DNA from: a bacterium
GTDB lineage: Bacteria > Babelota > Babeliae > Babelales > JABDEC01
NCBI GenBank assembly: GCA_023250055.1
Contig: JAHFBM010000002.1
Location: forward strand, 1 to 37,334
Length of the DNA stretch: 37,334 nt
Reading direction: 5' to 3'
The notes under the pieces are model-generated. The model did no database searches, was not told the DNA's origin, and saw only the letters and a list, made by a program, of their open reading frames with translations. Within the stretch, counting starts at the first letter, position 1. Each line of letters opens with the position of its first letter. Below, piece after piece: positions 4,879 through 31,164 of this stretch. The translations under genes were made by a program, and so were the position numbers.

Positions 4879-5754
4879 ATGCAATTTCTTAACCCATGCA
4901 ATGATGTTGCCTTTAAAAAAATTTTTGGATCAGAAGAACATAAAAGCGTTACCATCTCGTTTTTAAATTCAATCTTAGAATACACAGGTGATCAGCAAAT
5001 TACCGATGTTCAATTTTTAAATACTGAACAAAAAGGAGTTATGCCTGACAAAAAAGATAACATCTTAGATATTTTATGCACAGATCAATCTGGCAATAAA
5101 TACATTGTCGAAGTTCAAGTAGCTGGTTTAGAAGAATTTGACAAGCGCATCATTTTTTACGGTGCAAAAACTTATGTTATGCAGCTAGGTGCTACTCAAT
5201 CATATCGCACCCTAAATCCAGTAGTAGCTATTTCTGTACTTAATTTCACTTATTTTAAAGACAAACCTGACTATAAATCAATTCACTTATTGTTGGATAA
5301 AAAAACTCATACACATGATCTAAAAGAGCTATCCTTTGCTTTTATTGAGCTCCCTAAATTTAATAAGCAAGAACATGAGCTAATCTCCAATGAAGACAAG
5401 TGGATCTATTTCCTAAAAAACATTCGCAAAGAACAACAAATTCCAGCTCCACTAAATAACAATGAATTTAAGGCGGCTTGCCAGGCTGCCAATCGAATGA
5501 CCTGGACTGAAGTCGAATATAATGCCTATGAAAATGCCATTATCGCAGCAGATGATGCAATTGGTAAAATTAATTTTGCTTTAAAAGAAGGTCTAGAAAA
5601 GGGTAGAGAAGAAGGTCTAGAAAAGGGTAGAGAAGAGGGCAAACTAGCTGTGATTAAAGAACTTTTAGATGCAGGTAATCTTAGCATTGAGGCTATTGCT
5701 AAGGCAACCGGCTTTACCATAGACCGAATAAATCAAATTAAGAAGAACCTATGA
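4879..5754 (+). CDS. Rpn/YhgA-like PD-(D/E)XK nuclease (recombination-promoting nuclease / putative transposase family)
   Basis: N-terminus MQFLNPCNDVAFKKIFG..., and a D...ILDILCTDQSGNKYIVEVQV block typical of the PDDEXK_2/YhgA family. It starts 9 nt after the valS stop, and its stop overlaps the ybeY start (ATGA at 5751-5754). Confidence 0.75.
   Translation: MQFLNPCNDVAFKKIFGSEEHKSVTISFLNSILEYTGDQQITDVQFLNTEQKGVMPDKKDNILDILCTDQSGNKYIVEVQVAGLEEFDKRIIFYGAKTYVMQLGATQSYRTLNPVVAISVLNFTYFKDKPDYKSIHLLLDKKTHTHDLKELSFAFIELPKFNKQEHELISNEDKWIYFLKNIRKEQQIPAPLNNNEFKAACQAANRMTWTEVEYNAYENAIIAADDAIGKINFALKEGLEKGREEGLEKGREEGKLAVIKELLDAGNLSIEAIAKATGFTIDRINQIKKNL
5587..5634 (+). repeat. Perfect 24-bp tandem duplication (x2) inside the Rpn-like CDS, encoding EGLEKGRE twice
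   Basis: gaaggtctagaaaagggtagagaa occurs at 5587-5610 and again at 5611-5634. Confidence 0.95.
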
Positions 5755-8347: not shown

Positions 8348-9487
8348 TTAAATCCAATATAATTTTTCTATCTTATATTGGATACCAGCTTTATTTTTAG
8401 GCTGCTTTTTAATAATTGCATAAACTCGCTGCACAACCTGACCAACTTGGCCCTGTGCTATAACTGAAAAAAACTGCGGGTTAAAGCGATTATCAAAAAA
8501 TGCAACTAAGTCATTTGGTACATTGCTTAAATCTGAACTATATACCAAACCCAAAGTTTTGCCCCACTCACTTAGCCAATTTGTCTGTGGTTGAAACTGC
8601 TTAGTCCACTCTGCTACTGCCTGCTCTCGCTTTATTATATCATCAGACACCGCTCTTGAAAAGCCCAATCCAGCTAAAATAGAATCTGAAAACAACCAGG
8701 GCTGAAGGTCTGAGGACCGGCCATAAGTTGTAAAAAGATCTGTTAAATAAATTGGACGATGCAATTGCACACTATCCTCTTCAGAATCAACTGGCGGAAC
8801 ATAGAAAACATAATTTTGAAAGTACTTCCAGCTCGGCAATATTAATAGCTCTGTAATATCATAAAGGGGTTGCTGGCGCTCAGCCAAAAACCTTTCCAAA
8901 TCACGCATCATGACCTTAGGATCAACCTGATCTTTAGTTAAGGCAGCTAACTTATTAAAAATATAATTTAAAGCTAGCACAGTTCCAGAATCCTCTGACT
9001 CACTGCCAGGCGCAGGCTTTACAGCTCCCTTAAATTCATGCTTTGTAAAATCATACCACTGATTTAAATTAATTTTACCTTCTTCACAAGACAGGCAAAT
9101 CTTAATTTCGCCATCCAAACCATCAATTGATTCCTGCAACTGCACCTTATCCCAACGATTTAAACCTGGCAAAATTCGCTCTAAAAAAACAGCTTGTGGT
9201 GGACGCTTCACGCTCTCGATCGACTCATCAGTAGATACATTTTTAGACTCTTTGGGTCCAGACAAGCGACTAATTGCCATCTGCACGCCTCCCAATGCCA
9301 ACATTTTTGCCTTCTCGCGCTTCACAACTAAATCTGCGACCGGGACATATCCGGTAACCTGATAATATAACTTAGTGATTATAGCTGTACCAAGCGCCAT
9401 CATCATTAACGTTAAAATTAGAATGTAACCAGATTGAGATGTACCGCCCAGCAATTTGAAATTCTTATGTTTACGCATTTTTTTCAC
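8348..9487 (-). CDS. gspK: Type II secretion minor pseudopilin GspK-like
   Basis: The hydrophobic N-terminus SGYILILTLMMMALGTAII lacks Glu+5, as GspK does. It has an EEGKINLNQ motif similar to the GspK E-x-G-K-x-N-x-N block. It is the last gene of the pseudopilin operon and overlaps the upstream gene by 4 nt. Confidence 0.6.
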   Translation of the reverse strand: MKKMRKHKNFKLLGGTSQSGYILILTLMMMALGTAIITKLYYQVTGYVPVADLVVKREKAKMLALGGVQMAISRLSGPKESKNVSTDESIESVKRPPQAVFLERILPGLNRWDKVQLQESIDGLDGEIKICLSCEEGKINLNQWYDFTKHEFKGAVKPAPGSESEDSGTVLALNYIFNKLAALTKDQVDPKVMMRDLERFLAERQQPLYDITELLILPSWKYFQNYVFYVPPVDSEEDSVQLHRPIYLTDLFTTYGRSSDLQPWLFSDSILAGLGFSRAVSDDIIKREQAVAEWTKQFQPQTNWLSEWGKTLGLVYSSDLSNVPNDLVAFFDNRFNPQFFSVIAQGQVGQVVQRVYAIIKKQPKNKAGIQYKIEKLYWI

Positions 9488-10314
9488 TGAGCCATCCCCC
9501 TTTTAGCTAGTTTAGCAACTGACTCATCCTGCGTATCACCCTCTGCCAACTTAGGCTTCTTAGAAATATGTTCAACCTGTATCGGCATATACCAAAATTT
9601 AAACTCTTGTGAAGCATCCTGCCGATCGTCTTCCCATAACTCTAAATCTACTTCGACATATTTCGGCAACTCAGTCTGCTGCTCTGATTCTAAATTAGTT
9701 AACTGCTTAGGCTCCCCTTCATCCCCCTCTTGTGGAACAAAGTGATATGTCAAAACCAGTTTTTTAATTCCATTAATTAAATTGTAATTTTCAAGACTAG
9801 CCTTAGCAGCAATATAGTTTAAATCAATTGACTCTTGACGAAACAAGCTCCAACTATTTGGTTGATCAGCCTGCAAAGTGTAAACAACCCGTGTAATGCG
9901 CGGCTTTACATCGCCATAAACTTGCAGGGGGTTACAGGTTAGAAATGTTAGATCTTTTAGAATTTGTCCACCCGATCCGTCATCCTGACTAATACTAAGT
10001 AGCTGCTGCTCAACAGGCTTAGCTGGCTCAAATTCTAACTCTTCAACAGGTTTTTGTACTTGCTTTTGACCTTTACTAACTTCTGACGTAGCCGGCTGCT
10101 CTGGCTTTTTGATTTCCGGCAATAAAGACATTCCACTTAAATCTCGCTGTAAACGCTCTTGCACTAATGCTACGCGCATTCCAACCGAAATCGTTTCTCT
10201 AACCTGAGCCTCAGAGCGATATATTTGATTAATTATAGTATATAAAACAATTCCCAAGATGCTGGAGATTGCGATACCAAGCACAACCTCTATTAAAGCA
10301 AATCCGCGCTTCAT
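9484..10314 (-). CDS. gspJ: Prepilin-type minor pseudopilin (GspJ position)
   Basis: Prepilin cleavage/methylation motif MKRG|FALIEV with Glu+5. 4-nt overlaps with both neighbours. The name is assigned by gene order. Confidence 0.6.
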   Translation of the reverse strand: MKRGFALIEVVLGIAISSILGIVLYTIINQIYRSEAQVRETISVGMRVALVQERLQRDLSGMSLLPEIKKPEQPATSEVSKGQKQVQKPVEELEFEPAKPVEQQLLSISQDDGSGGQILKDLTFLTCNPLQVYGDVKPRITRVVYTLQADQPNSWSLFRQESIDLNYIAAKASLENYNLINGIKKLVLTYHFVPQEGDEGEPKQLTNLESEQQTELPKYVEVDLELWEDDRQDASQEFKFWYMPIQVEHISKKPKLAEGDTQDESVAKLAKRGMAQ

Positions 10315-10757
10315 GCCACCTCTTCCTCTTGTGGTACCAGATGAATTAAGCTAAGTATAGTCTCAGACTGATCCTGAAAAGGAGTACTCCATGATCCAAC
10401 ACACTGAACCAAGTGAAGGTCTGGAAATTTACGGTATAAACTAGATTGAGTTGGAATCGGTATCACTTCAAACTTCAGTTCACTAAACTGGCCCGTGTCT
10501 TTAATTATAAGTTGTCGATCGGTTTTGAACTTAGGGTCTAAAATCGCCTGCCCTTGTGAATTAAAAAAATAGTTTCTTAGATTTAATACTCGCACCATAG
10601 CGCTACTCTCATACCAAACTTGCTTTAAGATACTACTTTGTAAGCTGAACAATGACATGCTCATAACTCCCAAAATGGCAACCGCAATGATCACTTCAAT
10701 GAACATAGAGCCTGAAACATTATTTTGAGCAACTTTATTAATTAATTTCTGCATCAC
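10311..10757 (-). CDS. gspI: Prepilin-type minor pseudopilin (GspI position)
   Basis: N-terminal ...NVSGSMFIEVIIAVAILG, with Glu at +5 after the Gly. Small size (148 aa). The name is assigned by gene order. Confidence 0.55.
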   Translation of the reverse strand: MMQKLINKVAQNNVSGSMFIEVIIAVAILGVMSMSLFSLQSSILKQVWYESSAMVRVLNLRNYFFNSQGQAILDPKFKTDRQLIIKDTGQFSELKFEVIPIPTQSSLYRKFPDLHLVQCVGSWSTPFQDQSETILSLIHLVPQEEEVA

Positions 10758-11313
10758 TAATCTTAAATTGAGCTGAAAAAGGATTCAAAACTAAACTGTA
10801 TATATTATTTTCTTCGGATTTAGCAACCTGCTGATCTGTAAAATTCAACCTTACGGCTTGAGCAAGGCCATCACTGGAAATATAAAACCAGAATTTATCA
10901 TTACTACCATCCATCGCATTACGATCATTAATATAAATTTCACGCAATTTAAACCGTGGGTCAAGTTGCATCTGACCGTCTTGATAATCTAATTGCATTG
11001 GTTCAAATTTCAACTCACCTTGCGAAGTTAACTGATCAATTTGCGACTCAGCTACCAGCGTCCCAGAGTTTGAATCTATTGTAATTTTATGCAACTTGCC
11101 GGTTACAATTGCATTATACCAGACCAAACCCACAAAGGAGTTTAACTTAGCTACAAAAGATAGCCGTTCTTCTTCTGGTGTTTGACGCCATAAATTAGGT
11201 ACAACTACTGTGGCCATCGCTGCAATTAAAGCGATAGCCACAATCAATTCTATAAATGTAAACCCGCTAACCTTACGGCCAAAGCCATTCTTCTTCTGGA
11301 CTGCCTGGACCAT
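10738..11313 (-). CDS. gspH: Prepilin-type minor pseudopilin (GspH position)
   Basis: Motif ...RKVSG|FTFIELIVAIALIAA. ATG 11313 overlaps the gspG 3' end by 41 nt, and there is no alternative start before the cleavage motif. Confidence 0.6.
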   Translation of the reverse strand: MVQAVQKKNGFGRKVSGFTFIELIVAIALIAAMATVVVPNLWRQTPEEERLSFVAKLNSFVGLVWYNAIVTGKLHKITIDSNSGTLVAESQIDQLTSQGELKFEPMQLDYQDGQMQLDPRFKLREIYINDRNAMDGSNDKFWFYISSDGLAQAVRLNFTDQQVAKSEENNIYSLVLNPFSAQFKISDAEIN

Positions 11314-11698
11314 TTATACCCCAAGAATAAAGCTGATATGGTGGATGCGCATTTGGAACTATTTTATAAACAAATGGATTACCCCATCCATCATTAGGAA
11401 CCTCTTTAGCTTCCAAGTATGGACCATGCCATTGTCGCTCGGTTAAGTCTGCTGGCCTACGAATCAAATCATTTAATGATTGTGGTGCTTTATTAACCCG
11501 ACGAATATAATCATCAATATTAGATTTAATTGTTTGCAGATTAGTTACAGTCGTGCTTACTTTAGCATCATTTAAATATCTAATAGCATTTGGCGCTACA
11601 ATTAATGCCAACACTGCCAATATTGCCACCGCAATAATCAATTCTATAAAAGTAAACCCAGGGCGTAATTGCCGTCGGCGTAACCCATTAAATACCAT
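11273..11698 (-). CDS. gspG: Type II secretion major pseudopilin GspG
   Basis: Motif LRPG|FTFIELIIAVAILAVLA plus a C-terminal DGWGNPFVY block characteristic of GspG. 141 aa. Confidence 0.8.
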   Translation of the reverse strand: MVFNGLRRRQLRPGFTFIELIIAVAILAVLALIVAPNAIRYLNDAKVSTTVTNLQTIKSNIDDYIRRVNKAPQSLNDLIRRPADLTERQWHGPYLEAKEVPNDGWGNPFVYKIVPNAHPPYQLYSWGINGPGSPEEEWLWP

Positions 11699-11711
11699 AA
11701 ATTAAAACTCC

Positions 11712-12932
11712 TTATTTTTTTGAAACCATTTCATTCATCTTCACAATTGGCAAGACCATTGCAACTACAATAAATCCTACCACTAATGCCATCACCACCA
11801 TCATAATTGGATTTAAGGCCGCCGTTAAGCTTTCAGTTGTTTCTGATAGCTCTTCTTCATAATTGCTAGCTATGTTTTGCAGCATCAAGGCTAATTCTCC
11901 GCTTTCCTCACCAGTACTAATCAAATAGATCGCCATTGGTGGAAATAGATTAGTCTGTTTTAAATATTGCGTGATCTTACCCTCTTTGACAATATTTTCC
12001 TTAGCTTTCTCAAGGGTTTCTGCCAAAACTCGATTTTCAACAATGTTACACACAATCTCTAAGGCCTCAGACAAGCGTACACCGCCTTCCAACAGCATTC
12101 CTAATGTTCTAGAAAATTGAACAACCGCGCTAATCCGCACAAAATAATTAAAAGCCGGAATCTTTAACTTGAATTGATCAATCATGTAAGCCCCCCGTGG
12201 TCGTGATGCCCAATACTTAAGCGCCATCACCAACGAGCCAAGTATAATTGCTAGAATCAGATAATGATCTGTCATAAAATTAGAAATATTAACTAAGAAC
12301 TGTGTTGGACCAGGCAATGACCCACCACGCGCACTAAAAGTTTGAGTCATCTTAGGCACAATAAATACAATCATCCCAACCGCTACTGCACCCACAAAAG
12401 CTAGCTGAATCAAAGGACCACGCACAGCAGACTGAATCTCTCTAGTAATTTCACCTCGTCGCTCTAAGTAAGTCGTCAAGCGCTGCAAAATCATCTCTAA
12501 ATTGCCAGTTGCCTCACCAGCCTTTACCAACTGGATATAAATTTTATCAAATGTTTTAGGATACATGCCCAGGCCATCGGCTAATGATCGCCCCTCTTTG
12601 ACACCATCTTTAAGCTGTACGATAATTGAATGCAATGGACCAGAAAACTGATCCATTAGAAGCTCTAATGACTGCAATAATGGAATACCTGATTTAAGCA
12701 AAATAGCTAACTGCTTAGTAAATAAAATTTTATCTTTGGGTTTAACGCTACCAGCAAATAAACGTTGATACCATGGAATTCCAGCTCCACCACCACCGAC
12801 TAAACCGATTTCTGTAGGAAATAGCCCGCGCTTGACCAGCGCATCTTTTACCCCAGACTCTGATGGTGCATCAAGCTGCCCAATGATTTGCTTGCCGTCA
12901 CGTGAAAATGCTTTGTAATAATATAAAGCCAT
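11712..12932 (-). CDS. gspF: Type II secretion / type IV pilus platform protein GspF family
   Basis: 406 aa with two GspF-type repeats. N-terminus MALYYYKAFSRDGKQIIGQLDA... and motifs LAILLKSGIPLLQSLE and TLGMLLEGGVRLSEALE. Confidence 0.85.
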   Translation of the reverse strand: MALYYYKAFSRDGKQIIGQLDAPSESGVKDALVKRGLFPTEIGLVGGGGAGIPWYQRLFAGSVKPKDKILFTKQLAILLKSGIPLLQSLELLMDQFSGPLHSIIVQLKDGVKEGRSLADGLGMYPKTFDKIYIQLVKAGEATGNLEMILQRLTTYLERRGEITREIQSAVRGPLIQLAFVGAVAVGMIVFIVPKMTQTFSARGGSLPGPTQFLVNISNFMTDHYLILAIILGSLVMALKYWASRPRGAYMIDQFKLKIPAFNYFVRISAVVQFSRTLGMLLEGGVRLSEALEIVCNIVENRVLAETLEKAKENIVKEGKITQYLKQTNLFPPMAIYLISTGEESGELALMLQNIASNYEEELSETTESLTAALNPIMMVVMALVVGFIVVAMVLPIVKMNEMVSKK

Positions 12933-20864: not shown

Positions 20865-21437
20865 ATGAAATCGATCATAGTCGAAGCATCATCAATTGCT
20901 AAAGCAGTTGAACAAGGCTGGCAAAAAGCTGGTCAACCGAAGGAATTCTCAATTAAAGTCTTTCAAGAAGCCCAAAAAAATATGTTTGGACTAACCAAAG
21001 AATCTGCTAAAATTGGCTTTTTCTTTGATGATAAATCCATTGGTAGCAAAATTCAAAGTGCTACACCAGTTGAATCTGGCAACCATAACCAACCTACCCC
21101 ACATAAAGCACCAGCTCGTCATAACAGTCCACCGCAGCCACGCATAGCACCACAACCACGCCCTGAGACGCAAGCCACAACTGAAAAAACAGCACAGATC
21201 CGTCAACAAACACCCAAGCCTGCTCAACCAAAACCAAGGGTACAATTAGCTCCAAAATCAGCACCAGCTCATCTTGAATTGGATCAAAGCGCGCCACCCA
21301 TTGCCGAAGCTGCTAATGAGGCTGCAGTTGACTCAATTGTTAACCCAAACCGCAATCGCAATCGTCGCCGACGTAATTACTATCGCAATCGCGCCAAACG
21401 TAACAGTGGTGGCGATGCACCAACAGATGCAAACTGA
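20865..21437 (+). CDS. Jag_N-domain protein (KhpB/Jag-like N-terminus) with a P/Q-rich linker and Arg-rich tail; no KH or R3H domains
   Basis: MKSIIVEASSIAKAVEQGWQKAGQPKEFSIKVFQEAQKNMFGLTKESAKIGFFF fits the Jag N-terminal domain. The conserved position directly upstream of mnmE supports the call. The tail reads NPNRNRNRRRRNYYRNRAKRNSGG. Confidence 0.65.
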   Translation: MKSIIVEASSIAKAVEQGWQKAGQPKEFSIKVFQEAQKNMFGLTKESAKIGFFFDDKSIGSKIQSATPVESGNHNQPTPHKAPARHNSPPQPRIAPQPRPETQATTEKTAQIRQQTPKPAQPKPRVQLAPKSAPAHLELDQSAPPIAEAANEAAVDSIVNPNRNRNRRRRNYYRNRAKRNSGGDAPTDAN

Positions 21438-22791
21438 CGCAACCATTATTGCACAATGTACTCCATCTGGAAGTGGCGCAATTGCTCTTTTACGCCTATC
21501 CGGTGCTGATGCAATTATAATTGTGGATCGATTTAGCAAGCTCACACAGGGGCAGACCCTTAAGGCACAAGCTAGTCACACTGTCCACTATGGTCAAATC
21601 ATTGATCAGGACAAGCAAGTCGTAGATCAGGTTATGTTTATTGTGATGATTGCGCCTAAGACGTTTACGGGAGAGAATGTAGTTGAAATCACTTGCCATA
21701 ACAACCCCTTTATTATTGAGAAAATTATTGGCTTAGCTATCTTTCACGGCGCCAGACTAGCTCATAAAGGCGAATTTGCCCAACGATCATTCTTGAACAA
21801 CAAAATTGACCTAGTTCAAGCTGAAGCAATTAATAGCTTAATCCATGCCCACACTGAACAAGCAATGCAAAAATCTCTGTCGCAACTCAAGGGTAGCTTA
21901 ACCAACTGGTCACAACAGATCGAGCAAAGTCTATATAAATGCTTAGCTCTCTCAGAGGCTAGCTTTGAATTTATAGATGAAGAAATGGATTTTGGTCCCC
22001 AAATTAGAACTGAACTAGAACAAGTTATAACTCAAATCAAGCTTGCTCAACAAAGTTATGGCATTCAGCAACAGATTAAAGATGGCGTGCGTATAGCTAT
22101 TATCGGCACGGTCAATGCTGGCAAATCTGCTCTATTTAATGCCTTGCTTAAGCGTGAGCGGGCAATTGTAACTCCAATTGCTGGTACCACCCGAGATAGC
22201 ATCGAGGCTGGAATCTACACCAATCAACATTATTTAACTTTGGTAGACACAGCGGGGTTGCGACAAACAGATGATTATGTTGAGCAAATTGGGATTGAGC
22301 GTTCCATGGCAGAAGCCCATCAAGCCGACCTAATACTACTGGTATTTGATACCAGTCGAATGGTTACGCCAGCTGAACTAGCAATTTACCAGGAAATTAT
22401 GACCAAATACCAAGATAAAATTATATTGGTAGGCAATAAATGCGATCAAATTATCAAACTAGAACTGCCAGATCAATTTAAAAATTTAAATTTAGTCTCT
22501 GCGCAGGGCCTGAATGGTCTAACTGAACTGGAAGCGCTAGTTTTAGGCCGAATCAAGCAACTACTAGAGACCGACAGTAGTCCTTTTTTACTAAATCAGC
22601 GCCAATTTAATATTTTAAGCACGGTCGCCAGCAACTGCCAACAAATTTTAACTATGATTACCAATCCTGAATATGAGCTAATCTCTCTGCATCTTAATGA
22701 AATCTTGCAAATCCTCTCTGCCCTAACCGGCCAAAGCATCACAGAACAAGGACTAGAAACAATTTTTAGAGAATTTTGCGTCGGCAAGTAA
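21427..22791 (+). CDS. mnmE: tRNA modification GTPase MnmE (TrmE)
   Basis: MQTDATIIAQCTPSGSGAIALLRLSG N-terminus, G-domain GTVNAGKSALFN and DTAGLR, and the C-terminal FCVGK motif. The preferred start is ATG 21427, because the track's 21274 start would add about 50 aa overlapping the Jag_N gene. Confidence 0.9.
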   Translation: MQTDATIIAQCTPSGSGAIALLRLSGADAIIIVDRFSKLTQGQTLKAQASHTVHYGQIIDQDKQVVDQVMFIVMIAPKTFTGENVVEITCHNNPFIIEKIIGLAIFHGARLAHKGEFAQRSFLNNKIDLVQAEAINSLIHAHTEQAMQKSLSQLKGSLTNWSQQIEQSLYKCLALSEASFEFIDEEMDFGPQIRTELEQVITQIKLAQQSYGIQQQIKDGVRIAIIGTVNAGKSALFNALLKRERAIVTPIAGTTRDSIEAGIYTNQHYLTLVDTAGLRQTDDYVEQIGIERSMAEAHQADLILLVFDTSRMVTPAELAIYQEIMTKYQDKIILVGNKCDQIIKLELPDQFKNLNLVSAQGLNGLTELEALVLGRIKQLLETDSSPFLLNQRQFNILSTVASNCQQILTMITNPEYELISLHLNEILQILSALTGQSITEQGLETIFREFCVGK

Positions 22792-22875
22792 TCTTTTTTT
22801 ACCTTTTTCTTTAATTTTCAACTTTAAATTTACTATGATTAATATTGTAGTATTAATTTAAAGGAGGTTGTTTAA

Positions 22876-24750
22876 ATGAAGAAAATTTGGTTAATCTTGA
22901 TAATATCAACGACAACTAGTGCTATTGAGGCTGGAGTAACTGAGGCAGTTTCTGCTTGTTTAAGTAGTATTCTACCCTGCGCACCTACTTTAGACAGTGC
23001 CAATGGAATGGGTTGTACAATTGCACATTTTATTTACAGTGGTAGCAAAGGTCCATTCACTTGCACTGGAACAAGTTGTGATCTCACCGAAATAGACTTT
23101 CATGAAGACTTAGCTCTAATAGCCAAAAGCTTAAGCACTTCAAGTGGGATCGCCAGCTGTCCCGGCGTGACCTTAGCTGATATTATCAATCATCAAGATG
23201 GTGTTGATTTGAGCGGTGCTACTTTAAGTGCTGCAAACCTATCTGGACTAACCTTACCACACCTAAATTTAACTGGTGCTGATTTGTCACCTGTCTTCTA
23301 TGATGGAGAAGACCACGCAACTAATTTATCAGGCTTAAATGCCGCTGGTGCTACATTCCAAGGAACTATTTTCAATGGTGCAAATTTAAGTAACGGTATG
23401 TTCTATGGTTCCAGCATGAAAGAGGCTTCTTTTGGAAACACCAACTTGTCAAATTCCGATCTTGCACATGTCGATCTTGAAGGTGCAGGATTTTATCAAA
23501 CTAATTTAGACAAAGTTAATTTTCAATTTGCGACTCTAACTGGATTAGCTGATACTGTCACATTCGATAATGGTACTACAGTAGCTGCGGGTATTAAAAC
23601 TGCTCTAAATCTTGGCACTGCTGATTACACTGGAGCTATTTTATCTGGCATAGATCTTTCTTCCTCTGGTGTCCCTGGTGATGAACTTCACATACCACTA
23701 CATGCTCCCGGTTCTCACCTGGAAGGTGCAAACTTTAACTACACCGATATGAGTAATAGTGGCTTTTATGGCGCCATTATGACCGGCGCCACAATGCATG
23801 GTACTAATCTTACAGGAGCAAACTTCCAAACCGCCCAACTAGATAGTACTGATTTTAGTGAATCTACTCTAGTAAATACCACATTAGACAACATTATATG
23901 CTATATGGCCAATTTTAGTGGCGCTACTATGACTAACTTCTCTATGACCAGCGCCGATTGCTCAAATCCAACCCCACCTGCACCTGGTTCTAATGCTCCA
24001 TGGGCTGCCAATTCCACCTTTAATGGTGCTACCATAAGCAATGATTCTGTTTCTAAACCAGCCTTTAATGGTACAATGTTGCCTAATGCAGACTTTAGAA
24101 ACAGCAACATAACCAACATTAACTTCACTAACACGAATATTGTCAACAGTCTTTTTAATGGAACCACAATGGATGGAGTAGACTGGTCTAGCACTAATCT
24201 AACCAATGCAATCTTTGGGAACATGAAAGTTGGACATGGTGGGATTATAAATTTTATAAATACAGCTGAACCAACTACCATCTTAGCAGGGTCAACCCTT
24301 ACAGAAGATTCTACCTTAGGACACTGGTTAGGTAATAATTTACAGACTAATATTGTTGGAAACTGGATGGCTACACAGTGTAAAAATGGTATTCAACCAG
24401 TCTGCGCTGCATTTTGCCACATGCCTGATGCCACAAAGATACATCAATATGATGCCAATGGAAACGATGTAACCCTTCTTACATCTTATGAAGCTTGCCA
24501 CCCACTTAAACTATTTAATGTTCCAAACTACTCTGTTAATAAAGTTGCCGCAAATAGCAATAGCAACACCGTCGACTATTGGGGAGTAGGGTATCAACAA
24601 GATCCTAATACTGGAAATAACTTAAGTTATCAAACCTGTGGAGTAGATGCATGCAGCATGTTTGTGTATAAATACAATATGCAAATGAACCAATACAAAA
24701 ATGATCCCATCTTTAATAGTCAAGGCATGATTCCAAGTACATGGAAATAA
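22876..24750 (+). CDS. Secreted pentapeptide-repeat protein with a Cys-rich C-terminal module (paralog 1)
   Basis: SD AAGGAGG at 22861-22867. Signal-like MKKIWLILIISTTTSAIEA. Long runs of A(D/N)LxX pentapeptides (GATLSAANLSGLTLPHLNLTGADLS...). The C-terminus QCKNGIQPVCAAFCHM...ACHP...CSMFVYKYNM is shared with the next gene. Confidence 0.8.
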   Translation: MKKIWLILIISTTTSAIEAGVTEAVSACLSSILPCAPTLDSANGMGCTIAHFIYSGSKGPFTCTGTSCDLTEIDFHEDLALIAKSLSTSSGIASCPGVTLADIINHQDGVDLSGATLSAANLSGLTLPHLNLTGADLSPVFYDGEDHATNLSGLNAAGATFQGTIFNGANLSNGMFYGSSMKEASFGNTNLSNSDLAHVDLEGAGFYQTNLDKVNFQFATLTGLADTVTFDNGTTVAAGIKTALNLGTADYTGAILSGIDLSSSGVPGDELHIPLHAPGSHLEGANFNYTDMSNSGFYGAIMTGATMHGTNLTGANFQTAQLDSTDFSESTLVNTTLDNIICYMANFSGATMTNFSMTSADCSNPTPPAPGSNAPWAANSTFNGATISNDSVSKPAFNGTMLPNADFRNSNITNINFTNTNIVNSLFNGTTMDGVDWSSTNLTNAIFGNMKVGHGGIINFINTAEPTTILAGSTLTEDSTLGHWLGNNLQTNIVGNWMATQCKNGIQPVCAAFCHMPDATKIHQYDANGNDVTLLTSYEACHPLKLFNVPNYSVNKVAANSNSNTVDYWGVGYQQDPNTGNNLSYQTCGVDACSMFVYKYNMQMNQYKNDPIFNSQGMIPSTWK

Positions 24751-24782
24751 AGTAAATTTAATTAAAAAAATGGAGCTAAAAA

Positions 24783-27053
24783 ATGAAAAATCTAATAAAC
24801 ATTAAAATAATCTTGATGCTGAGCATATTAAGCTCACAGGCTTTAAGCGCATCAACATCTAGCCAAAATGAGATATTAAAGTTACTTACAAGTTTTGCTA
24901 ACTCTCATGGCACTGCTGTAGTTTGTAACGGCTGCGACTTAAGCAATATCGATTTTACAATACCAATTAGTAGTTTGCTAGCTGGTGTATCAGCAGCTTC
25001 TATTCCAATAACTGCCACTCAAATGACACAATCTTTGGTACAACTACTAAATAATCTAACTGTAACACTACAGTGCACAAACTTACAATATGCTAATTTA
25101 AAAGGGCTAACTTTACAAACTAACGCTGCGGATCTATCTTGTCCAAATACCTTACTATCTACTAATTTATCAAATGCAATTTTAAATTATGCCTCCCTTG
25201 AAAAAGCTAATTTAAGGAATGTTAATTTAACTAGTGCCCAACTGAATTATGCCAATATTTCTGGAGCAGATTTAACCGGATCTAGTATTACCGGAATTCT
25301 AAAGAAAGGACTCATAGCTCAAGGTGTAATTACACCATCCGGTGCAAATAGCCCAGAGAGTAATATCGTAAATATTTTAATAAGCATCGCAAATGGAAAA
25401 CCAGTTAATTGTTCTGGTTGTGATCTATCATTACAAGATTTTAGCGATACTCAAATTCAATTTTTATTCTCATTGACCTATGGTGATTCATCTTTGATTC
25501 CTGATGAAATTTATCAAGGACAGGCCCTTGGAACGCTAATCGGAAATACTCTAAAACAAGGAATTCCGGTTCATCTACAATGTGCCAACTTAAAAAAATC
25601 CACCCTAAGGGACTTAGAATGGGATGGAATTGATTTGACATGCCCAGATCCATCTGGAGATACTAGCACCAATTTAAGTGGCGCTAATATGATCGGCATC
25701 AGCTTAAAAGGTGCTAATTTAACGAGGGCCAATATGTCAGGAGCTTCTTTAGACAATGCGTCTTTTACTGAAAAAGCCATCCTGGACCATGCTAGCTTAT
25801 ATTCTGCAAGCATGACCGGCACTGATTTCACTGGCGCTTCAATGGTTGGAGTTGGATTAGGCAGCAATGATGTTACTAACGCTATTTTTAAAGAAGCAGA
25901 TTTGTCTGACTTAATACAATCAGAAAAAAGAAGCCTTACTACAATAGCTAGCCCTGTACCTGAAATAATCTACTCAGGTTTTAAGTCAGCCAAAGTTGGA
26001 ACATTAACACTCGCTGATTTTACAGGAGCTAATATCCAAGGAGCCGACTTTTCCAACCTTGGAAACATAGGGCATATGAACTTTAATGGTGCAAACTTAA
26101 CTGGTGCCCACTTTGATAATACTGATATGTCCTGTGGCCCAAATTGTGGCAGTAACTTCTATGGTACTATTTTAGACAATTCTACTTTTACAAATTCTAA
26201 TCTATCTGGCGCAAATTTAAAAACAGCTAGTCTAAATGGTGCTGATTTCACTGGTGCAACCGTAACTGGAACATTAATGGATAACATTAATTGCAAAGGT
26301 ACTAAATTCATCAATGTTACTTTAGACGGAACCAAAGGCACTACTATGACGAATGCCGATTGCTCAGGATATACTGATGCTGGTCCAACTTCATTCTCTG
26401 GCGCAACTATTACTGGCATGAACCTAAATAATTTAATTGCTCAAAATGCTGTTTTTGATCATAGTACTATTACAGATACAGATTTTACTGGATCAAATTT
26501 AGCCGGAAGCAGCTTCTATGACACAACTTTAGCAGGTAACATCAATCTAAGCGGTGTTAGTTTAAAAGAAGCAAATTTAAGTAATGTTCAAGTTACTGGA
26601 GCCATTACCAACATAAACCAAAATATACCATTCCATACTGGTCTTTATACCGACTTCTCTGGCGCAACTCTAGATAAAGCATCTAACCTTGATCAATATC
26701 TAGGTGAAAATTTAGATACTGACACCTGGGGAAATATAATGACAGGTCAATGCAAAGCGGGGTCTATGCCAATGTGTGCAGCTTTCTGCCACATGAATCC
26801 TATGGATGCCTGTCACCCATTTGATATATACAACACATCTTATTGTATAGGAAATTTACCATATGGAGGCTTCGAAACATTAAATGAATGCCAAGCCCAG
26901 GGTGGCAATCCAAATTGCCAAAAGCAATGTGACCACAATAAATGCTATGAATTTGTTTATGGTTACCAAATGAATACTAGCTCATGGAATAGCACTTGTG
27001 CAAATTCGCCTACTAGTTTAGGCCAGAAGCTACAAGATTTTGGCGGAAGGTAG
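24783..27053 (+). CDS. Secreted pentapeptide-repeat protein with duplicated 4-Cys N-terminal modules and a Cys-rich C-terminal module (paralog 2)
   Basis: Signal-like MKNLINIKIILMLSILSSQALSA. Pentapeptide runs (NLSGANLKTASLNGADFTGATVTG...). An internal duplication covers aa 29-132 and 194-301. The C-terminus reads QCKAGSMPMCAAFCHM..ACHP...CYEFVYGYQM. Confidence 0.8.
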   Translation: MKNLINIKIILMLSILSSQALSASTSSQNEILKLLTSFANSHGTAVVCNGCDLSNIDFTIPISSLLAGVSAASIPITATQMTQSLVQLLNNLTVTLQCTNLQYANLKGLTLQTNAADLSCPNTLLSTNLSNAILNYASLEKANLRNVNLTSAQLNYANISGADLTGSSITGILKKGLIAQGVITPSGANSPESNIVNILISIANGKPVNCSGCDLSLQDFSDTQIQFLFSLTYGDSSLIPDEIYQGQALGTLIGNTLKQGIPVHLQCANLKKSTLRDLEWDGIDLTCPDPSGDTSTNLSGANMIGISLKGANLTRANMSGASLDNASFTEKAILDHASLYSASMTGTDFTGASMVGVGLGSNDVTNAIFKEADLSDLIQSEKRSLTTIASPVPEIIYSGFKSAKVGTLTLADFTGANIQGADFSNLGNIGHMNFNGANLTGAHFDNTDMSCGPNCGSNFYGTILDNSTFTNSNLSGANLKTASLNGADFTGATVTGTLMDNINCKGTKFINVTLDGTKGTTMTNADCSGYTDAGPTSFSGATITGMNLNNLIAQNAVFDHSTITDTDFTGSNLAGSSFYDTTLAGNINLSGVSLKEANLSNVQVTGAITNINQNIPFHTGLYTDFSGATLDKASNLDQYLGENLDTDTWGNIMTGQCKAGSMPMCAAFCHMNPMDACHPFDIYNTSYCIGNLPYGGFETLNECQAQGGNPNCQKQCDHNKCYEFVYGYQMNTSSWNSTCANSPTSLGQKLQDFGGR

Positions 27054-27061
27054 AAAAAATA

Positions 27062-27100
27062 TTAGAGAGAGCTTATCACAATCCGACAAGCTCTCTCTAA
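27062..27100. terminator. Intrinsic terminator hairpin between convergent genes (a better fit for pal on the minus strand)
   Basis: A 13-bp stem ttagagagagctt / aagctctctctaa with a 13-nt loop. On the minus strand it is followed by tattttttc. On the plus strand the U-tract is weak. Confidence 0.6.
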
Positions 27101-27115
27101 TTAATCATTAAAAAA

Positions 27116-29733: not shown

Positions 29734-31164
29734 GTGACAGAATACGAAATAAATATTGGAATTGAAGTACATGTGCAGCTCAACACCAAGAGCAAAATCT
29801 TTTGCCCATGTCCCAATCAAATTGCTGATCAACCCAACATCAACATTTGTCAAATTTGCAGTGGCTATCCTGGAGTATTGCCGGTTTTAAATAAATCCGT
29901 AGTTGAAAGTGCAATTTTAGCAGGGCTTGCAACTGAATCACAGATTACTCCCCGAACAACCTTTTCGCGAAAACATTACTTCTATCCCGATTTACCTAAA
30001 AACTATCAGATCACCCAGCATACTGATCCGATTTGCACTGAAGGACGTATTAAAATTAAGACACTAGAAGGTCAGGATAAGTACGTTCGCTTAACTAGAA
30101 TCCACATGGAAGAAGATGCCGGCAAGAACATCCATGCTCCTCAAGCCAATGCTAGCTTTGTAAATTTAAATCGAACTGGCACACCCCTGCTGGAGATTGT
30201 CAGTTATCCTGACATTTCCGGATCACACGAAGCTAAAGAATACCTTAAAAAATTACGCTTAATTATGCAGTACCTCAAGATCTGCTCGGGAAATATGGAA
30301 GATGGCGCCTTTCGAGCGGACACTAACATCTCTGTAAGGCCAAAAGGCTCAACGCAACTTGGAACTCGCTGTGAATTAAAAAATATTAACTCATTTAAAT
30401 TTATTAGTGATGCAATTGAATATGAAGCCTCACGCCAAATTGCCTTAATTGAATCTGGCCAAAAGGTTCGCCAAGAAACACGCTTGTGGGACGCCAAAAA
30501 TCGGATGACGATCACGATGCGATCTAAAGAAGATGCCGCAGATTATCGTTATTTTGAAGACCCAGATTTGCCAATTTTGGAGATTAGTCCAGAATTTATC
30601 CAGCAATTTAGAGTCGTACTACCGGAGCTTCCTGATCAAAAGCTAGATCGTTTAATTCTATCAGGACTATCAGAGTATGAAGCTAATATTTTAATAGATG
30701 ATTTAGAGCTAGCTAATTACTTTGACGCAGCCCAAAAACATACCTCTAGCAAGCATTTGATTAACTGGGTGCTCCGCAATTTAATGGGATATATCAAAGA
30801 AGCCAAAATTAATTTAGCTGAATGCAAAGTAACCCCTGCTAAACTGGCTGAATTGGTAGAATTAATTGAGCAAGATGTTATTAATACTAGTGTTGCCCAA
30901 GATGTCTTTGAATTAACTGCTCAAGATGGTACCAGTCCAAGCCAAATTGTTGAGCAGAGAGGGCTGAAGCAAATCGGCTCTAGCGCTGAACTTGAGGCAA
31001 TTGTTATACAGATTTTAACCGAACACCCTAATGTTGTAGCAGATTACAAGTCTGGTAAAGATCGACTGTTTGGATTCTTTGTTGGTCAGGCCATGCAAAA
31101 AACTGCCGGCAAAGGCAATCCTAAAATTTTACATGAGTTATTGAAAAAACATTTAGCCAATTAA
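29734..31164 (+). CDS. gatB: Asp-tRNA(Asn)/Glu-tRNA(Gln) amidotransferase subunit B
   Basis: GTG start. YEINIGIEVHVQLNTKSKIFCPC, HMEEDAGK and a C-terminal GatB_Yqey-like domain (LFGFFVGQAMQKTAGKGNP). Confidence 0.9.
   Translation: MTEYEINIGIEVHVQLNTKSKIFCPCPNQIADQPNINICQICSGYPGVLPVLNKSVVESAILAGLATESQITPRTTFSRKHYFYPDLPKNYQITQHTDPICTEGRIKIKTLEGQDKYVRLTRIHMEEDAGKNIHAPQANASFVNLNRTGTPLLEIVSYPDISGSHEAKEYLKKLRLIMQYLKICSGNMEDGAFRADTNISVRPKGSTQLGTRCELKNINSFKFISDAIEYEASRQIALIESGQKVRQETRLWDAKNRMTITMRSKEDAADYRYFEDPDLPILEISPEFIQQFRVVLPELPDQKLDRLILSGLSEYEANILIDDLELANYFDAAQKHTSSKHLINWVLRNLMGYIKEAKINLAECKVTPAKLAELVELIEQDVINTSVAQDVFELTAQDGTSPSQIVEQRGLKQIGSSAELEAIVIQILTEHPNVVADYKSGKDRLFGFFVGQAMQKTAGKGNPKILHELLKKHLAN

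What the first reader, a model, noticed from the sequence alone, without database searches (positions are those of the whole stretch)
22876..27053. Tandem secreted pentapeptide-repeat paralogs capped by an unrecognised Cys-rich C-terminal module and duplicated 4-Cys N-modules
What the sequence shows. Two adjacent same-strand ORFs (624 and 756 aa, 32-bp gap) each have a signal-like N-terminus and several hundred residues of A(D/N)LxX-type pentapeptides. They also share a C-terminal module of roughly 120-140 aa: LG-NL-T---GN-M--QCK-G--P-CAAFCHM ... ACHP ... C--FVY-Y-M. I cannot place this module in any family I know. Paralog 2 also contains an internal duplication of a ~105-aa module with four Cys (aa 29-132 and 194-301), of the form ...C-x-G-C-D-L-S-x-x-D-F ... 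LQC-x-NL ... DL(S/T)CP ... TNLS-x-A. This corresponds to nt 24867-25178 and 25362-25685. One degenerate copy is present in paralog 1 (CTGTSCDLTEIDF...SCPG). Why it is unusual. The characterised pentapeptide proteins (Qnr, MfpA) are cytoplasmic DNA mimics. An exported beta-helix flanked by modules that are probably disulfide-bonded points to a different, surface or host-directed role.
Basis: partly seen in the sequence, partly recalled or inferred. Interest (0 to 1): 0.7.

Follow-up and report, generated by a model that had tools for sequence, protein, structure and literature searches.

The report
Exported cysteine-stapled pentapeptide-repeat protein pair
Two neighbouring genes in an uncultured Babeliales (Dependentiae/TM6) bacterium encode exported, probably disulfide-stapled pentapeptide-repeat rods that end in a small helical cysteine-rich domain found in only three related lineages; this is a lineage-specific elaboration of the already known exported pentapeptide-repeat proteins, not a new kind of system.

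Summary
Two same-strand ORFs (624 and 756 aa, 32-bp gap) are strong Pentapeptide (PF00805) proteins with Sec-type N-termini. They share a C-terminal module of about 130-150 aa (BLASTP E=2e-16). The second protein carries a real internal duplication of an N-terminal module (E=2e-13).

The C-module is an orphan. It has no Pfam, NCBIfam, PDB-sequence or Foldseek match. An exhaustive profile search of 1.84 billion representative proteins found it in only three related lineages, always in the same tandem pair. AlphaFold2 predicts an all-helical cap on the beta-helix.

The N-module is not new. It is the helix + CxxC + first coil + insertion seen in cyanobacterial Rfr23 (PDB 2O6W).

Mature proteins always have an even number of cysteines, and cysteines are gained and lost in pairs. 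Many sit one coil (20-25 residues) apart.

The host is a Babeliales MAG. The pair occupies a variable slot between mnmE and pal that is empty in the closest relatives. It diverges far faster (33-39% identity) than MnmE (82%).

Exported, Cys-capped pentapeptide proteins are already known (Rfr32, Rfr23, TL15, Caulobacter YjbI). I therefore rate this a new variant of a known kind, of moderate-to-low interest.

The parts
22862..22867 (+). AGGAGG ribosome-binding site 8 nt upstream of the PRP1 start; the 84-bp mnmE-PRP1 spacer is conserved in the sister species
   Evidence: Sequence read (window and L004).
22876..24750 (+). PRP1: 624-aa exported pentapeptide-repeat protein (14 Cys in the mature protein)
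   Evidence: Ortholog P0008 (608 aa, 33% identity).
22876..22935 (+). PRP1 Sec-type signal peptide (MKKIWLILIISTTTSAIEAG), heuristic
   Evidence: The same MKK(I/L)WLI start occurs in P0008, L007b and L008_404.
22951..23175 (+). PRP1 N-cap module with 6 Cys conserved in ortholog P0008 (C28, C35, C47, C63, C68, C95); it includes the CxxxxC/CxxC-DL start of the helix
23176..24288 (+). PRP1 pentapeptide beta-helix body, including the conserved Cys pair C342/C362 spaced exactly one coil apart
24289..24747 (+). PRP1 C-terminal orphan Cys-rich helical module (aa 472-624; 6 Cys)
24772..24775 (+). GGAG ribosome-binding site of PRP2 in the 32-bp spacer; no terminator lies between the genes, so they are probably co-transcribed
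24783..27053 (+). PRP2: 756-aa exported pentapeptide-repeat protein (22 Cys in the mature protein), made of an extra N-terminal mini-helix domain plus a PRP1-like body
   Evidence: Ortholog P0006 (860 aa, 39% identity).
24783..24851 (+). PRP2 Sec-type signal peptide (MKNLINIKIILMLSILSSQALSA), heuristic
24867..25178 (+). PRP2 N-module copy 1 (aa 29-132): helix, C48-x2-C51, first coil, insertion, then stacked C98/C120
25362..25685 (+). PRP2 N-module copy 2 (aa 194-301): helix, C210-x2-C213, first coil, insertion, then C267/C287 exactly 20 residues apart
25686..26660 (+). PRP2 main beta-helix (AF2 pLDDT about 85-96), with a C451-x3-C455 loop and the invariant pair C504/C527
26661..27050 (+). PRP2 C-terminal orphan Cys-rich helical module (aa 627-756; 10 Cys)
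27061..27101 (.). 18-bp-stem palindromic hairpin between the convergent PRP2 and pal genes (probable bidirectional terminator)
   Evidence: A different hairpin sits at the same place in the sister species.

Best explanation
PRP1 and PRP2 are a probably co-transcribed pair of paralogous extracytoplasmic pentapeptide-repeat proteins of an uncultured Babeliales (Dependentiae) bacterium. Proposed mechanism: each is exported by Sec through a cleavable signal peptide and folds oxidatively outside the cytoplasm into a long right-handed quadrilateral beta-helix rod of about 18 coils. PRP2 has an additional 4-coil domain in front. The start of each helix is closed by an Rfr23-type cap (short helix + CxxC + first coil with an insertion). 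Adjacent coils are stapled by cysteines spaced one coil apart. The end of the helix is closed by a lineage-specific Cys-rich bundle of about 5-8 helices, an enlarged analogue of the two-helix disulfide cap of Rfr32 and TL15. Because they are outside the cytoplasm they cannot act as gyrase/DNA mimics. I infer that they act as rigid, acidic, host- or environment-facing scaffolds, either displayed on the surface or released (possibly through the T2SS-type machinery encoded 10 kb away). They are a fast-evolving, lineage-specific accessory, not a core function. Shown: gene structure, repeat family, paralogy and duplication, restricted distribution, insertion into a variable slot, and the Cys patterns. 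Inferred: export, disulfide bonding, location and role.
For: Repeat family and fold: Pfam PF00805 hits; AF2 model with the beta-helix at pLDDT about 90; Foldseek top hits are all PRP structures. Export: n/h/c-type N-termini in both proteins and in the orthologs P0008, P0006 and L007b. Disulfides: mature Cys counts are 14, 22, 20 and 24, all even. Cys content is 2.2-3.3%, against a median of 0.76% in 118 generic long PRPs. In the C-module, four Cys columns are invariant; columns 80 and 127 co-occur in 4 of 5 sequences and are jointly absent in the fifth; columns 109 and 131 co-occur in 3 of 5. Recurrent Cys spacing of 20-25 residues equals one coil. N-cap: the best PDB match of the N-module profile is Rfr23 2O6W, aligned from its ECVGCNL motif through its insertion. 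C-cap: helical, with pLDDT 78-90 for aa 621-690 in the full-length model. Lineage-specific accessory: the C-module occurs in only 5 clusters of 1.84e9 representatives, always as the same tandem pair and in the same locus in the sister species. The closest relatives (MnmE 64-67% identity) have mnmE directly followed by pal. The slot varies from 33 bp to 6.6 kb across Babeliales and mostly holds signal-peptide orphans. Fast evolution: 33% and 39% identity between orthologs, against 82% for the adjacent MnmE. Context: T2SS-F and pseudopilin genes lie in the window. In the cultured Dependentiae C. destructans, 44% of CDS carry signal peptides, and secreted repeat proteins are regarded as effectors (PMC6561590). 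Precedent for exported Cys-capped PRPs.
Against: No signal-peptide predictor, proteomics or expression data were available. The alignment behind the C-module model has only 5 sequences; the stand-alone model has mean pLDDT 60.9, and four of its five models are poor. A Dsb-type oxidase was not looked for, since only a 37-kb contig was available. Nothing discriminates surface display from release or from periplasmic residence. Fast divergence could reflect relaxed constraint as well as host-driven selection.
Confidence: 0.55

Rival explanations
1. YjbI-like envelope sentinel. The proteins reside in or on the outer membrane and regulate envelope composition or stress signalling, as does Caulobacter YjbI. 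In this reading they are housekeeping envelope factors, not host-facing accessories.
For: They share the signal peptide, the quadrilateral beta-helix and the Cys pairs at both ends with YjbI (PMC12864828). The genes sit next to the envelope gene pal. The proteins are acidic (D+E 48-57 against K+R 17-32), like the charged faces described for YjbI.
Against: They are 3-4 times larger than YjbI (183 aa). They lack a conserved charged C-terminal tail: the termini differ in all five sequences. The only sequence relation to the YjbI ortholog Rfr32 (2F3L/2G0Y) is through generic repeats (E=2.4e-5). They are absent from the closest relatives and from 57 other Babeliales loci. Orthologs are only 33-39% identical. 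All of this argues against a conserved housekeeping role.
Confidence: 0.2
2. Cytoplasmic DNA-mimic PRPs of the Qnr/MfpA/AlbG type that protect or regulate topoisomerases. In this reading the hydrophobic N-terminus is not a signal peptide.
For: Weak sub-threshold NCBIfam similarity to Qnr and MfpA models. Foldseek hits to QnrB1, AlbG and MfpA. The surface is acidic.
Against: All Qnr and MfpA hits are far below the curated cut-offs (for example 52.8 bits against 240) and reflect generic repeats. Signal-like N-termini are conserved across divergent orthologs. 14-24 Cys in even numbers, gained and lost in pairs, is atypical for a cytoplasmic protein. Size and domain architecture differ from the roughly 200-aa dimeric Qnr type.
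Confidence: 0.04
3. The C-module is a metal- or haem-binding redox domain (CAAFCHM = CX3CH; ACH) and not a disulfide-stapled structural cap.
For: A CX3CH-like string and an invariant His in the A-x-H motif sit in an exported protein.
Against: The His after the CX3C is replaced by Glu in P0008 and by Asn in P0007. Cys appear and disappear in pairs, as expected for disulfides. There is no match to any cytochrome or metal-binding family.
Confidence: 0.06
4. The ORFs are low-complexity or decaying open frames without a function, and the shared motifs are chance or compositional.
For: The sequence is repeat-rich and N/S/T/G-rich. The family is an orphan. It occurs only in metagenome-derived assemblies.
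Against: Both long ORFs are intact, with good RBSs, in three lineages. Synteny and the 32-bp spacing are conserved. Non-repeat modules are significantly similar (E=2e-16 and 2e-13). Cys columns are conserved despite 33-39% overall identity.
Confidence: 0.03

Closest known systems
Rfr23 of Cyanothece/Crocosphaera 51142 (PDB 2O6W)
   Same: A pentapeptide beta-helix that begins with C-x-G-C-(D/N)-L-x-x-(V/I/L)-(D/N)-(F/L), the CxxC 'disulfide bracket'. An insertion follows between the first and second coil. It is the best PDB match to the N-module profile (E=7.7e-11 with the flanking coils, 0.015 for the cap alone; review).
   Different: Rfr23 is a single protein of about 150 aa. Here the module is preceded by a helix. 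It carries two extra stacked Cys in the PRP2 type, or three or four other Cys in the PRP1 type. It is duplicated within one protein and starts helices about 18 coils long.
Rfr32 (PDB 2F3L/2G0Y) and Arabidopsis TL15/At2g44920 (PDB 3N90), lumenal PRPs
   Same: A signal or transit peptide directs export to an oxidising compartment. The beta-helix is capped at its C-terminus by alpha-helices held by a disulfide (PMC8145042).
   Different: Their caps are two short helices with one disulfide. Here the cap is a module of 115-153 aa with about 5-8 predicted helices and 6-10 Cys, and it has no detectable sequence or fold similarity to them. The proteins are 4-5 times longer.
YjbI-type secreted PRPs (Caulobacter crescentus YjbI; PMC12864828)
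   Same: An N-terminal secretion signal, a quadrilateral beta-helix, conserved Cys pairs at both extremities, and an extracytoplasmic location in a diderm.
   Different: YjbI has 183 aa and a charged C-terminal tail that is required for function. The present proteins have 624 and 756 aa, no conserved tail, many more Cys including inter-coil pairs, and are restricted to one small clade.
Multi-module exported PRPs of related Babeliales (L010 2184-aa protein; L008 404-aa protein)
   Same: The same type of signal peptide (MKKLWLI...) and the same CxxC-(D/N)L N-cap modules. These are repeated at least 5 times in the 2184-aa protein, as they are duplicated in PRP2.
   Different: They lack the C-module and sit upstream of jag, not downstream of mnmE.
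Type III effector PRPs PipB/PipB2/SopA (Salmonella)
   Same: A pentapeptide-repeat domain in a protein delivered outside the bacterium. Sub-threshold NCBIfam hits.
   Different: T3SS effectors lack Sec signal peptides and disulfides. Scores are far below the cut-offs (62.9-78.8 bits against 354). No T3SS is evident in the window.

Membership tests
Pentapeptide repeat protein superfamily (Pfam PF00805 / Rfr fold) | At least 8 contiguous A(D/N)LXX pentapeptides that score above the Pfam gathering threshold | tested here: met
   118.9 and 179.8 bits against a cut-off of 20.2, in 7-9 stretches.
Pentapeptide repeat protein superfamily (Pfam PF00805 / Rfr fold) | Right-handed quadrilateral beta-helix | tested here: met
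   The AF2 model has regular short strands every 5 residues and pLDDT 85-96 over aa 300-610. The top Foldseek hits are HetL, designed PRPs, QnrB1, AlbG and MfpA. This is a prediction only.
YjbI-type secreted PRPs (sPRPs) | N-terminal secretion signal | tested here: inconclusive
   Heuristic n/h/c-regions are present and conserved in the orthologs. No dedicated predictor or experiment was available.
YjbI-type secreted PRPs (sPRPs) | [quoted passage not shown] | tested here: met
   CxxC at each helix start and at least 4 invariant Cys after the helix end. There are more Cys than the two pairs of YjbI.
YjbI-type secreted PRPs (sPRPs) | Charged C-terminal tail required for function; small protein of about 180 aa | tested here: not met
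   The C-termini are unrelated among the five sequences (…STWK, …FGGR, …QFQQ, …GTGC, …AQNI). Lengths are 608-860 aa.
Rfr23-type N-terminus | CxxC bracket at the first coil, followed by an insertion between coils 1 and 2 | tested here: met
   The profile alignment to 2O6W starts at ECVGCNLEGVNL and spans its insertion. The full profile gives E=7.7e-11. The cap-only E-value of 0.015 is marginal.
Qnr/MfpA topoisomerase-protecting PRPs | Score above the NCBIfam equivalog cut-off; cytoplasmic protein of about 200 aa | tested here: not met
   The best Qnr score is 55.8 bits against a cut-off of 240, and the best MfpA score is 44.7 against 360. A signal-like N-terminus is present.
Any described domain family for the C-terminal module | A significant match to Pfam, NCBIfam, PDB sequences or PDB/BFVD folds | tested here: not met
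   Pfam has nothing at E<=10 except one chance hit at 0.075. NCBIfam lists only PRP models. PDB phmmer gives 0 hits at E<=10. Foldseek against PDB gives 0 hits at E<=10. BFVD gives only E>5.
c-type cytochrome haem-binding site | Conserved CXnCH motif | tested here: not met
   The motif is CAAFCH in three sequences but CGSFCE and CGAFCN in the other two.

The most novel reading that the evidence does not exclude
The C-terminal module is a new disulfide-rich helical fold that serves as the functional 'head' of the rod, either a receptor or ligand-binding domain or an envelope-anchoring domain. In this reading PRP1 and PRP2 pair through it to form a heteromeric surface fibre or adhesin, which this Babeliales clade uses to attach to or manipulate its protist host. 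It would be a previously undescribed type of bacterial surface appendage built on a pentapeptide-repeat shaft.
Probability: 0.12. Interest if true: 0.6.

Novelty: new variant of a known kind. Interest (0 to 1): 0.35.

Why it matters
The function of exported pentapeptide-repeat proteins is largely unknown, and the first mechanistic study (YjbI) appeared only in 2026. This pair shows how far the scaffold can be elaborated: multi-domain rods, inter-coil cysteine staples and a private helical cap domain. It occurs in Dependentiae, a phylum of obligate protist symbionts whose secreted repeat proteins are thought to be effectors. If the C-module proved to be a binding head, it would give a handle on host recognition in an uncultured clade. 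It would also offer a compact disulfide-stapled capping unit for designed beta-solenoids. As it stands, the pair is one of many lineage-specific exported orphans in such genomes.

Tried and rejected
1. The search for homologous proteins with the PRP2 C-module alone returned nothing, not even its parent protein. I regard this as a limitation of the word index for short queries, because the exhaustive search and the exact look-up both found the proteins.

2. The genome-contig scan with the C-module patterns gave 104 pattern matches, none confirmed. Two metagenome-contig scans, with different first sequences, gave 111 pattern matches each, none confirmed.

3. The last homologous-protein search, with the full-length alignment, was swamped by generic PRPs longer than 1000 aa. 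Scores dropped from 868 to 325 bits after P0006. None of the 118 generic hits contains the C-module, and only one has the strict N-cap motif.

4. tblastn of the C-module against the plasmid and phage collections gave no match.

5. The haem c (CX3CH) idea was rejected because the His is not conserved.

6. dN/dS from the second sample was uninformative: 1 nt difference in 1875, so it is the same strain.

7. Horizontal transfer by composition: the GC content of the pair (0.36-0.42) does not differ from the contig, so there is no evidence for recent foreign origin.

8. The promoter and terminator scans were at background frequency, except for the hairpin after PRP2.

9. The C-terminal domain of the related 404-aa PRP (L008) is unrelated to the C-module.

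Full report
**1. Observation**

The window contains two adjacent same-strand ORFs. PRP1 spans 22876-24750 (624 aa) and PRP2 spans 24783-27053 (756 aa), with 32 bp between them.
- Both have strong Shine-Dalgarno sequences: AGGAGG 8 nt before the PRP1 start, and GGAG before the PRP2 start.
- No terminator lies between them. A hairpin with an 18-bp stem follows PRP2 (27061-27101).
- Both are unambiguous pentapeptide-repeat proteins: PF00805 at 118.9 and 179.8 bits against a cut-off of 20.2.
- The two proteins align over their whole length (E=5e-50).
- The non-repeat C-terminal modules alone give E=2e-16. QC-x7-C-x3-C-x-M, A-C-H-P and C-x2-F-V-Y-x-Y-x-M are conserved.

The description is therefore confirmed.

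**2. Organism and locus**

The window is an entire 37,334-bp contig held by NCBI and ENA. Identical or near-identical copies of the locus occur in two other ENA assemblies.

Taxonomy was inferred from the adjacent MnmE.
- Its best named relative is a 'Candidatus Babeliales' MAG.
- A scan of GTDB species representatives returned 57 loci. All but two carry MnmE at 38-62% identity. Those whose record titles name a taxon say Candidatus Babeliales, Dependentiae or TM6. Others are titled only 'uncultured bacterium' or 'uncultured Pseudomonadota'. The two outliers, at about 31-32% identity, are a Clostridia MAG and Candidatus Stammera.

The rest of the window fits a diderm symbiont. It encodes MlaD/E/F, a Pal-like OmpA lipoprotein, MurJ, T2SS-F with pseudopilins, a TPR protein and a RING-finger protein.

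The block jag-mnmE-[slot]-pal(-)-rng is conserved across about 50 Babeliales genomes.
- The slot length ranges from 33 bp to 6.6 kb. It mostly holds small lineage-specific proteins with signal-like N-termini.
- In the closest relatives with long contigs (MnmE 64-67% identical), mnmE is followed directly by pal.
- The PRP pair is therefore a lineage-specific occupant of a variable slot.

**3. Distribution of the C-module**

No described family matches it.
- Pfam gave nothing at E<=10 except one chance hit.
- NCBIfam listed only PRP models.
- PDB sequence search gave 0 hits at E<=10.
- tblastn against plasmids and phages gave no match.

An exhaustive HMMER profile search of 1.84 billion cluster representatives found five proteins. 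Two are the window's own. The others are P0006 (860 aa), P0008 (608 aa) and P0007 (a 274-aa fragment). Their contigs show the same arrangement.
- In a sister species, a 608-aa PRP1-type gene is followed by an 860-aa PRP2-type gene. The pair sits between the same mnmE (82% identical, P0010) and the same pal.
- In a third lineage, a PRP1-type C-terminus is followed after 32 bp by a PRP2-type start.

A C-module HMM found nothing in the 57 other Babeliales loci, nor in 118 generic long PRPs. The module is thus a true orphan, confined to one small clade, and always found in this tandem pair.

**4. Structure**

AlphaFold2 on full-length PRP2 (6-sequence alignment) gave mean pLDDT 74.7.
- The main beta-helix (aa about 300-610) has pLDDT 85-96.
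- In front of it lies a separate short helix domain (aa about 90-170), joined by a low-confidence linker (aa 170-188).
- The C-module is all-helical: H636-643, 646-658, 662-668, 675-682, 700-705, 718-727, 732-741 and 743-752. Confidence is pLDDT 78-90 for aa 621-690.

The C-module modelled alone is weaker (mean pLDDT 60.9), but it shows the same five core helices. It has no Foldseek match in PDB (0 hits at E<=10) or in BFVD. The whole model matches only known PRP structures.

Alignment A5 shows that PRP2 equals an extra N-terminal cap-plus-mini-helix domain followed by a PRP1-like body.

**5. The N-module is a known type of helix start**

An alignment of seven N-modules from both paralog types gives the consensus: helix, then C-x-G-C-D-L-S-x-x-D-F, then a variable insertion, then V-x-L-Q-C-A-x-L.
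- Its best PDB match is Rfr23 (2O6W). The alignment starts at ECVGCNLEGVNL and runs through the Rfr23 insertion into the next coil (E=7.7e-11 with the flanking coils; 0.015 for the cap alone).
- The PRP review describes exactly these Rfr23 features: a Cys39-Cys42 disulfide bracket and a 24-residue insertion between coils 1 and 2 (PMC8145042).
- Related Babeliales carry the same cap repeatedly. One 2184-aa exported PRP has at least five copies.

**6. Cysteines**

The evidence fits structural disulfides formed outside the cytoplasm.
- Mature proteins contain 14, 22, 20 and 24 Cys, always an even number.
- Cys content is 2.2-3.3%, against a median of 0.76% in generic long PRPs.
- Within the helices, Cys recur 20-25 residues apart, which is one coil. 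Examples are 267/287, 342/362 and 504/527 in the window proteins, and 68/88 and 370/390 in P0006. This places them on adjacent rungs.
- In the C-module, four Cys columns are invariant. Columns 80 and 127 are present together in four sequences and absent together in the fifth. Columns 109 and 131 are present together in three sequences.
- The CAAFCH string is not a haem site, because the His is Glu or Asn in two members.

I could not measure Cys-Cys distances because model coordinates are not returned by the tool.

**7. Export**

Both proteins and their orthologs start with a basic n-region, a hydrophobic core of 10-13 residues and small residues at positions -3 and -1. There is no lipobox. Apart from one marginal window at PRP2 aa 58 (mean hydropathy 1.61 against a 1.6 cut-off, inside the N-module insertion), there is no further TM-like segment. 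No signal-peptide predictor was available, so export is well supported but still inferred.

**8. Rate of evolution**

Orthologs in the sister species are 33% (PRP1) and 39% (PRP2) identical, against 82% for MnmE next door. The Cys framework is nevertheless retained. This suggests a stable scaffold with rapidly changing surfaces, as expected for exposed or host-facing proteins. Relaxed constraint cannot be excluded.

**9. Comparison with what is known**

The following are all extracytoplasmic:
- Rfr32, with a signal peptide and a two-helix C-cap held by a disulfide;
- Rfr23;
- Arabidopsis TL15;
- the SV2 luminal domain;
- Caulobacter YjbI, which is secreted, sits at the outer-membrane surface, and has Cys pairs at both ends of the helix.

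The present proteins share that logic but differ in scale. I file them as PRP-superfamily members of the exported, Cys-capped kind that carry a new C-terminal domain.

In Dependentiae generally, 44% of CDS carry signal peptides, and the secreted set is enriched in orphans and repeat proteins regarded as effectors (PMC6561590). A lineage-specific exported repeat protein is therefore typical for the phylum.

**10. Verdict**

- The most likely mechanism is a Sec-exported, disulfide-stapled beta-helix rod, capped at both ends, that acts outside the cytoplasm as a fast-evolving host- or environment-facing scaffold (confidence about 0.55).
- A YjbI-like envelope role is the main rival (about 0.2).
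- Novelty: new variant of a known kind.
- Interest: about 0.35.

Noticed in passing
window 34764-35540 (-) and 35537-36610 (-): A 258-aa protein has a eukaryote-type RING finger (PF13639 at 8.3e-07, PF00097 at 2.3e-06). After an internal Met it has a signal-like stretch (MLRVLLLLAYSANCLGA). It overlaps the end of a P/S/R-rich 357-aa orphan that also has a signal-like N-terminus. Local GC is the highest in the window (0.449). This is a possible secreted E3-ligase-like effector pair.
   Followed up: partly
window 8348-12932 (-): A cluster of T2SS/type IV pilus-type genes: T2SS-F (PF00482, 1.5e-56), two proteins with N-terminal methylation motifs (pseudopilins), and a GspK-like orphan. This could be an export route for folded periplasmic proteins such as the PRPs.
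   Followed up: partly
L012-L068, between the mnmE and pal matches (e.g. L060 9385-15725, L021 9464-13736, L066 10151-11097): The mnmE-pal interval is a variable slot across Babeliales, from 33 bp to 6.6 kb. It is filled mostly with small lineage-specific proteins that have signal-like N-termini, often in tandem paralog arrays. In L066 two adjacent proteins of 155-160 aa carry 14 and 16 Cys. A conserved protein of about 380 aa (MKKKIIIFTSSGGGGH...) is also frequent there.
   Followed up: partly
L010 53-6607 (also L011 1247-7798); L008 7933-9147: Relatives that lack the pair encode other exported PRPs upstream of jag. One is a 2184-aa protein with 38 Cys and at least five repeats of the 'LNxTGxCxxC(D/N)L' N-cap, a beads-on-a-string series of beta-helices. 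Another is a 404-aa PRP with the same MKKLWLI signal peptide but a different Cys/Trp-rich C-terminal domain.
   Followed up: partly
window 4879-5754 (+): A PD-(D/E)XK nuclease family transposase (PF12784, 5.9e-56; Rpn/YhgA-like) lies between valS and ybeY.
   Followed up: no
window 20865-21437 (+) and 21274-22791 (+): The Jag-like protein has only a weak Jag_N match. It carries a long P/Q-rich then Arg-rich tail whose coding region overlaps the extended upstream ORF of mnmE. The real mnmE start is probably 21415, as in the 458-aa gene call in L001.
   Followed up: partly
window 27061-27101: A perfect 18-bp-stem palindromic hairpin lies between the convergent PRP2 and pal genes. The sister species has a different GC-rich hairpin at the same position, so the terminator function is conserved but not the sequence.
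   Followed up: partly
window 29734-31164 to 31470 versus L008-L010: Relatives have secG between gatB and mlaE. In the window, the 300-bp gatB-mlaE interval was not checked for a short secG ORF, since the ORF lists used a cut-off of at least 150 aa.
   Followed up: no
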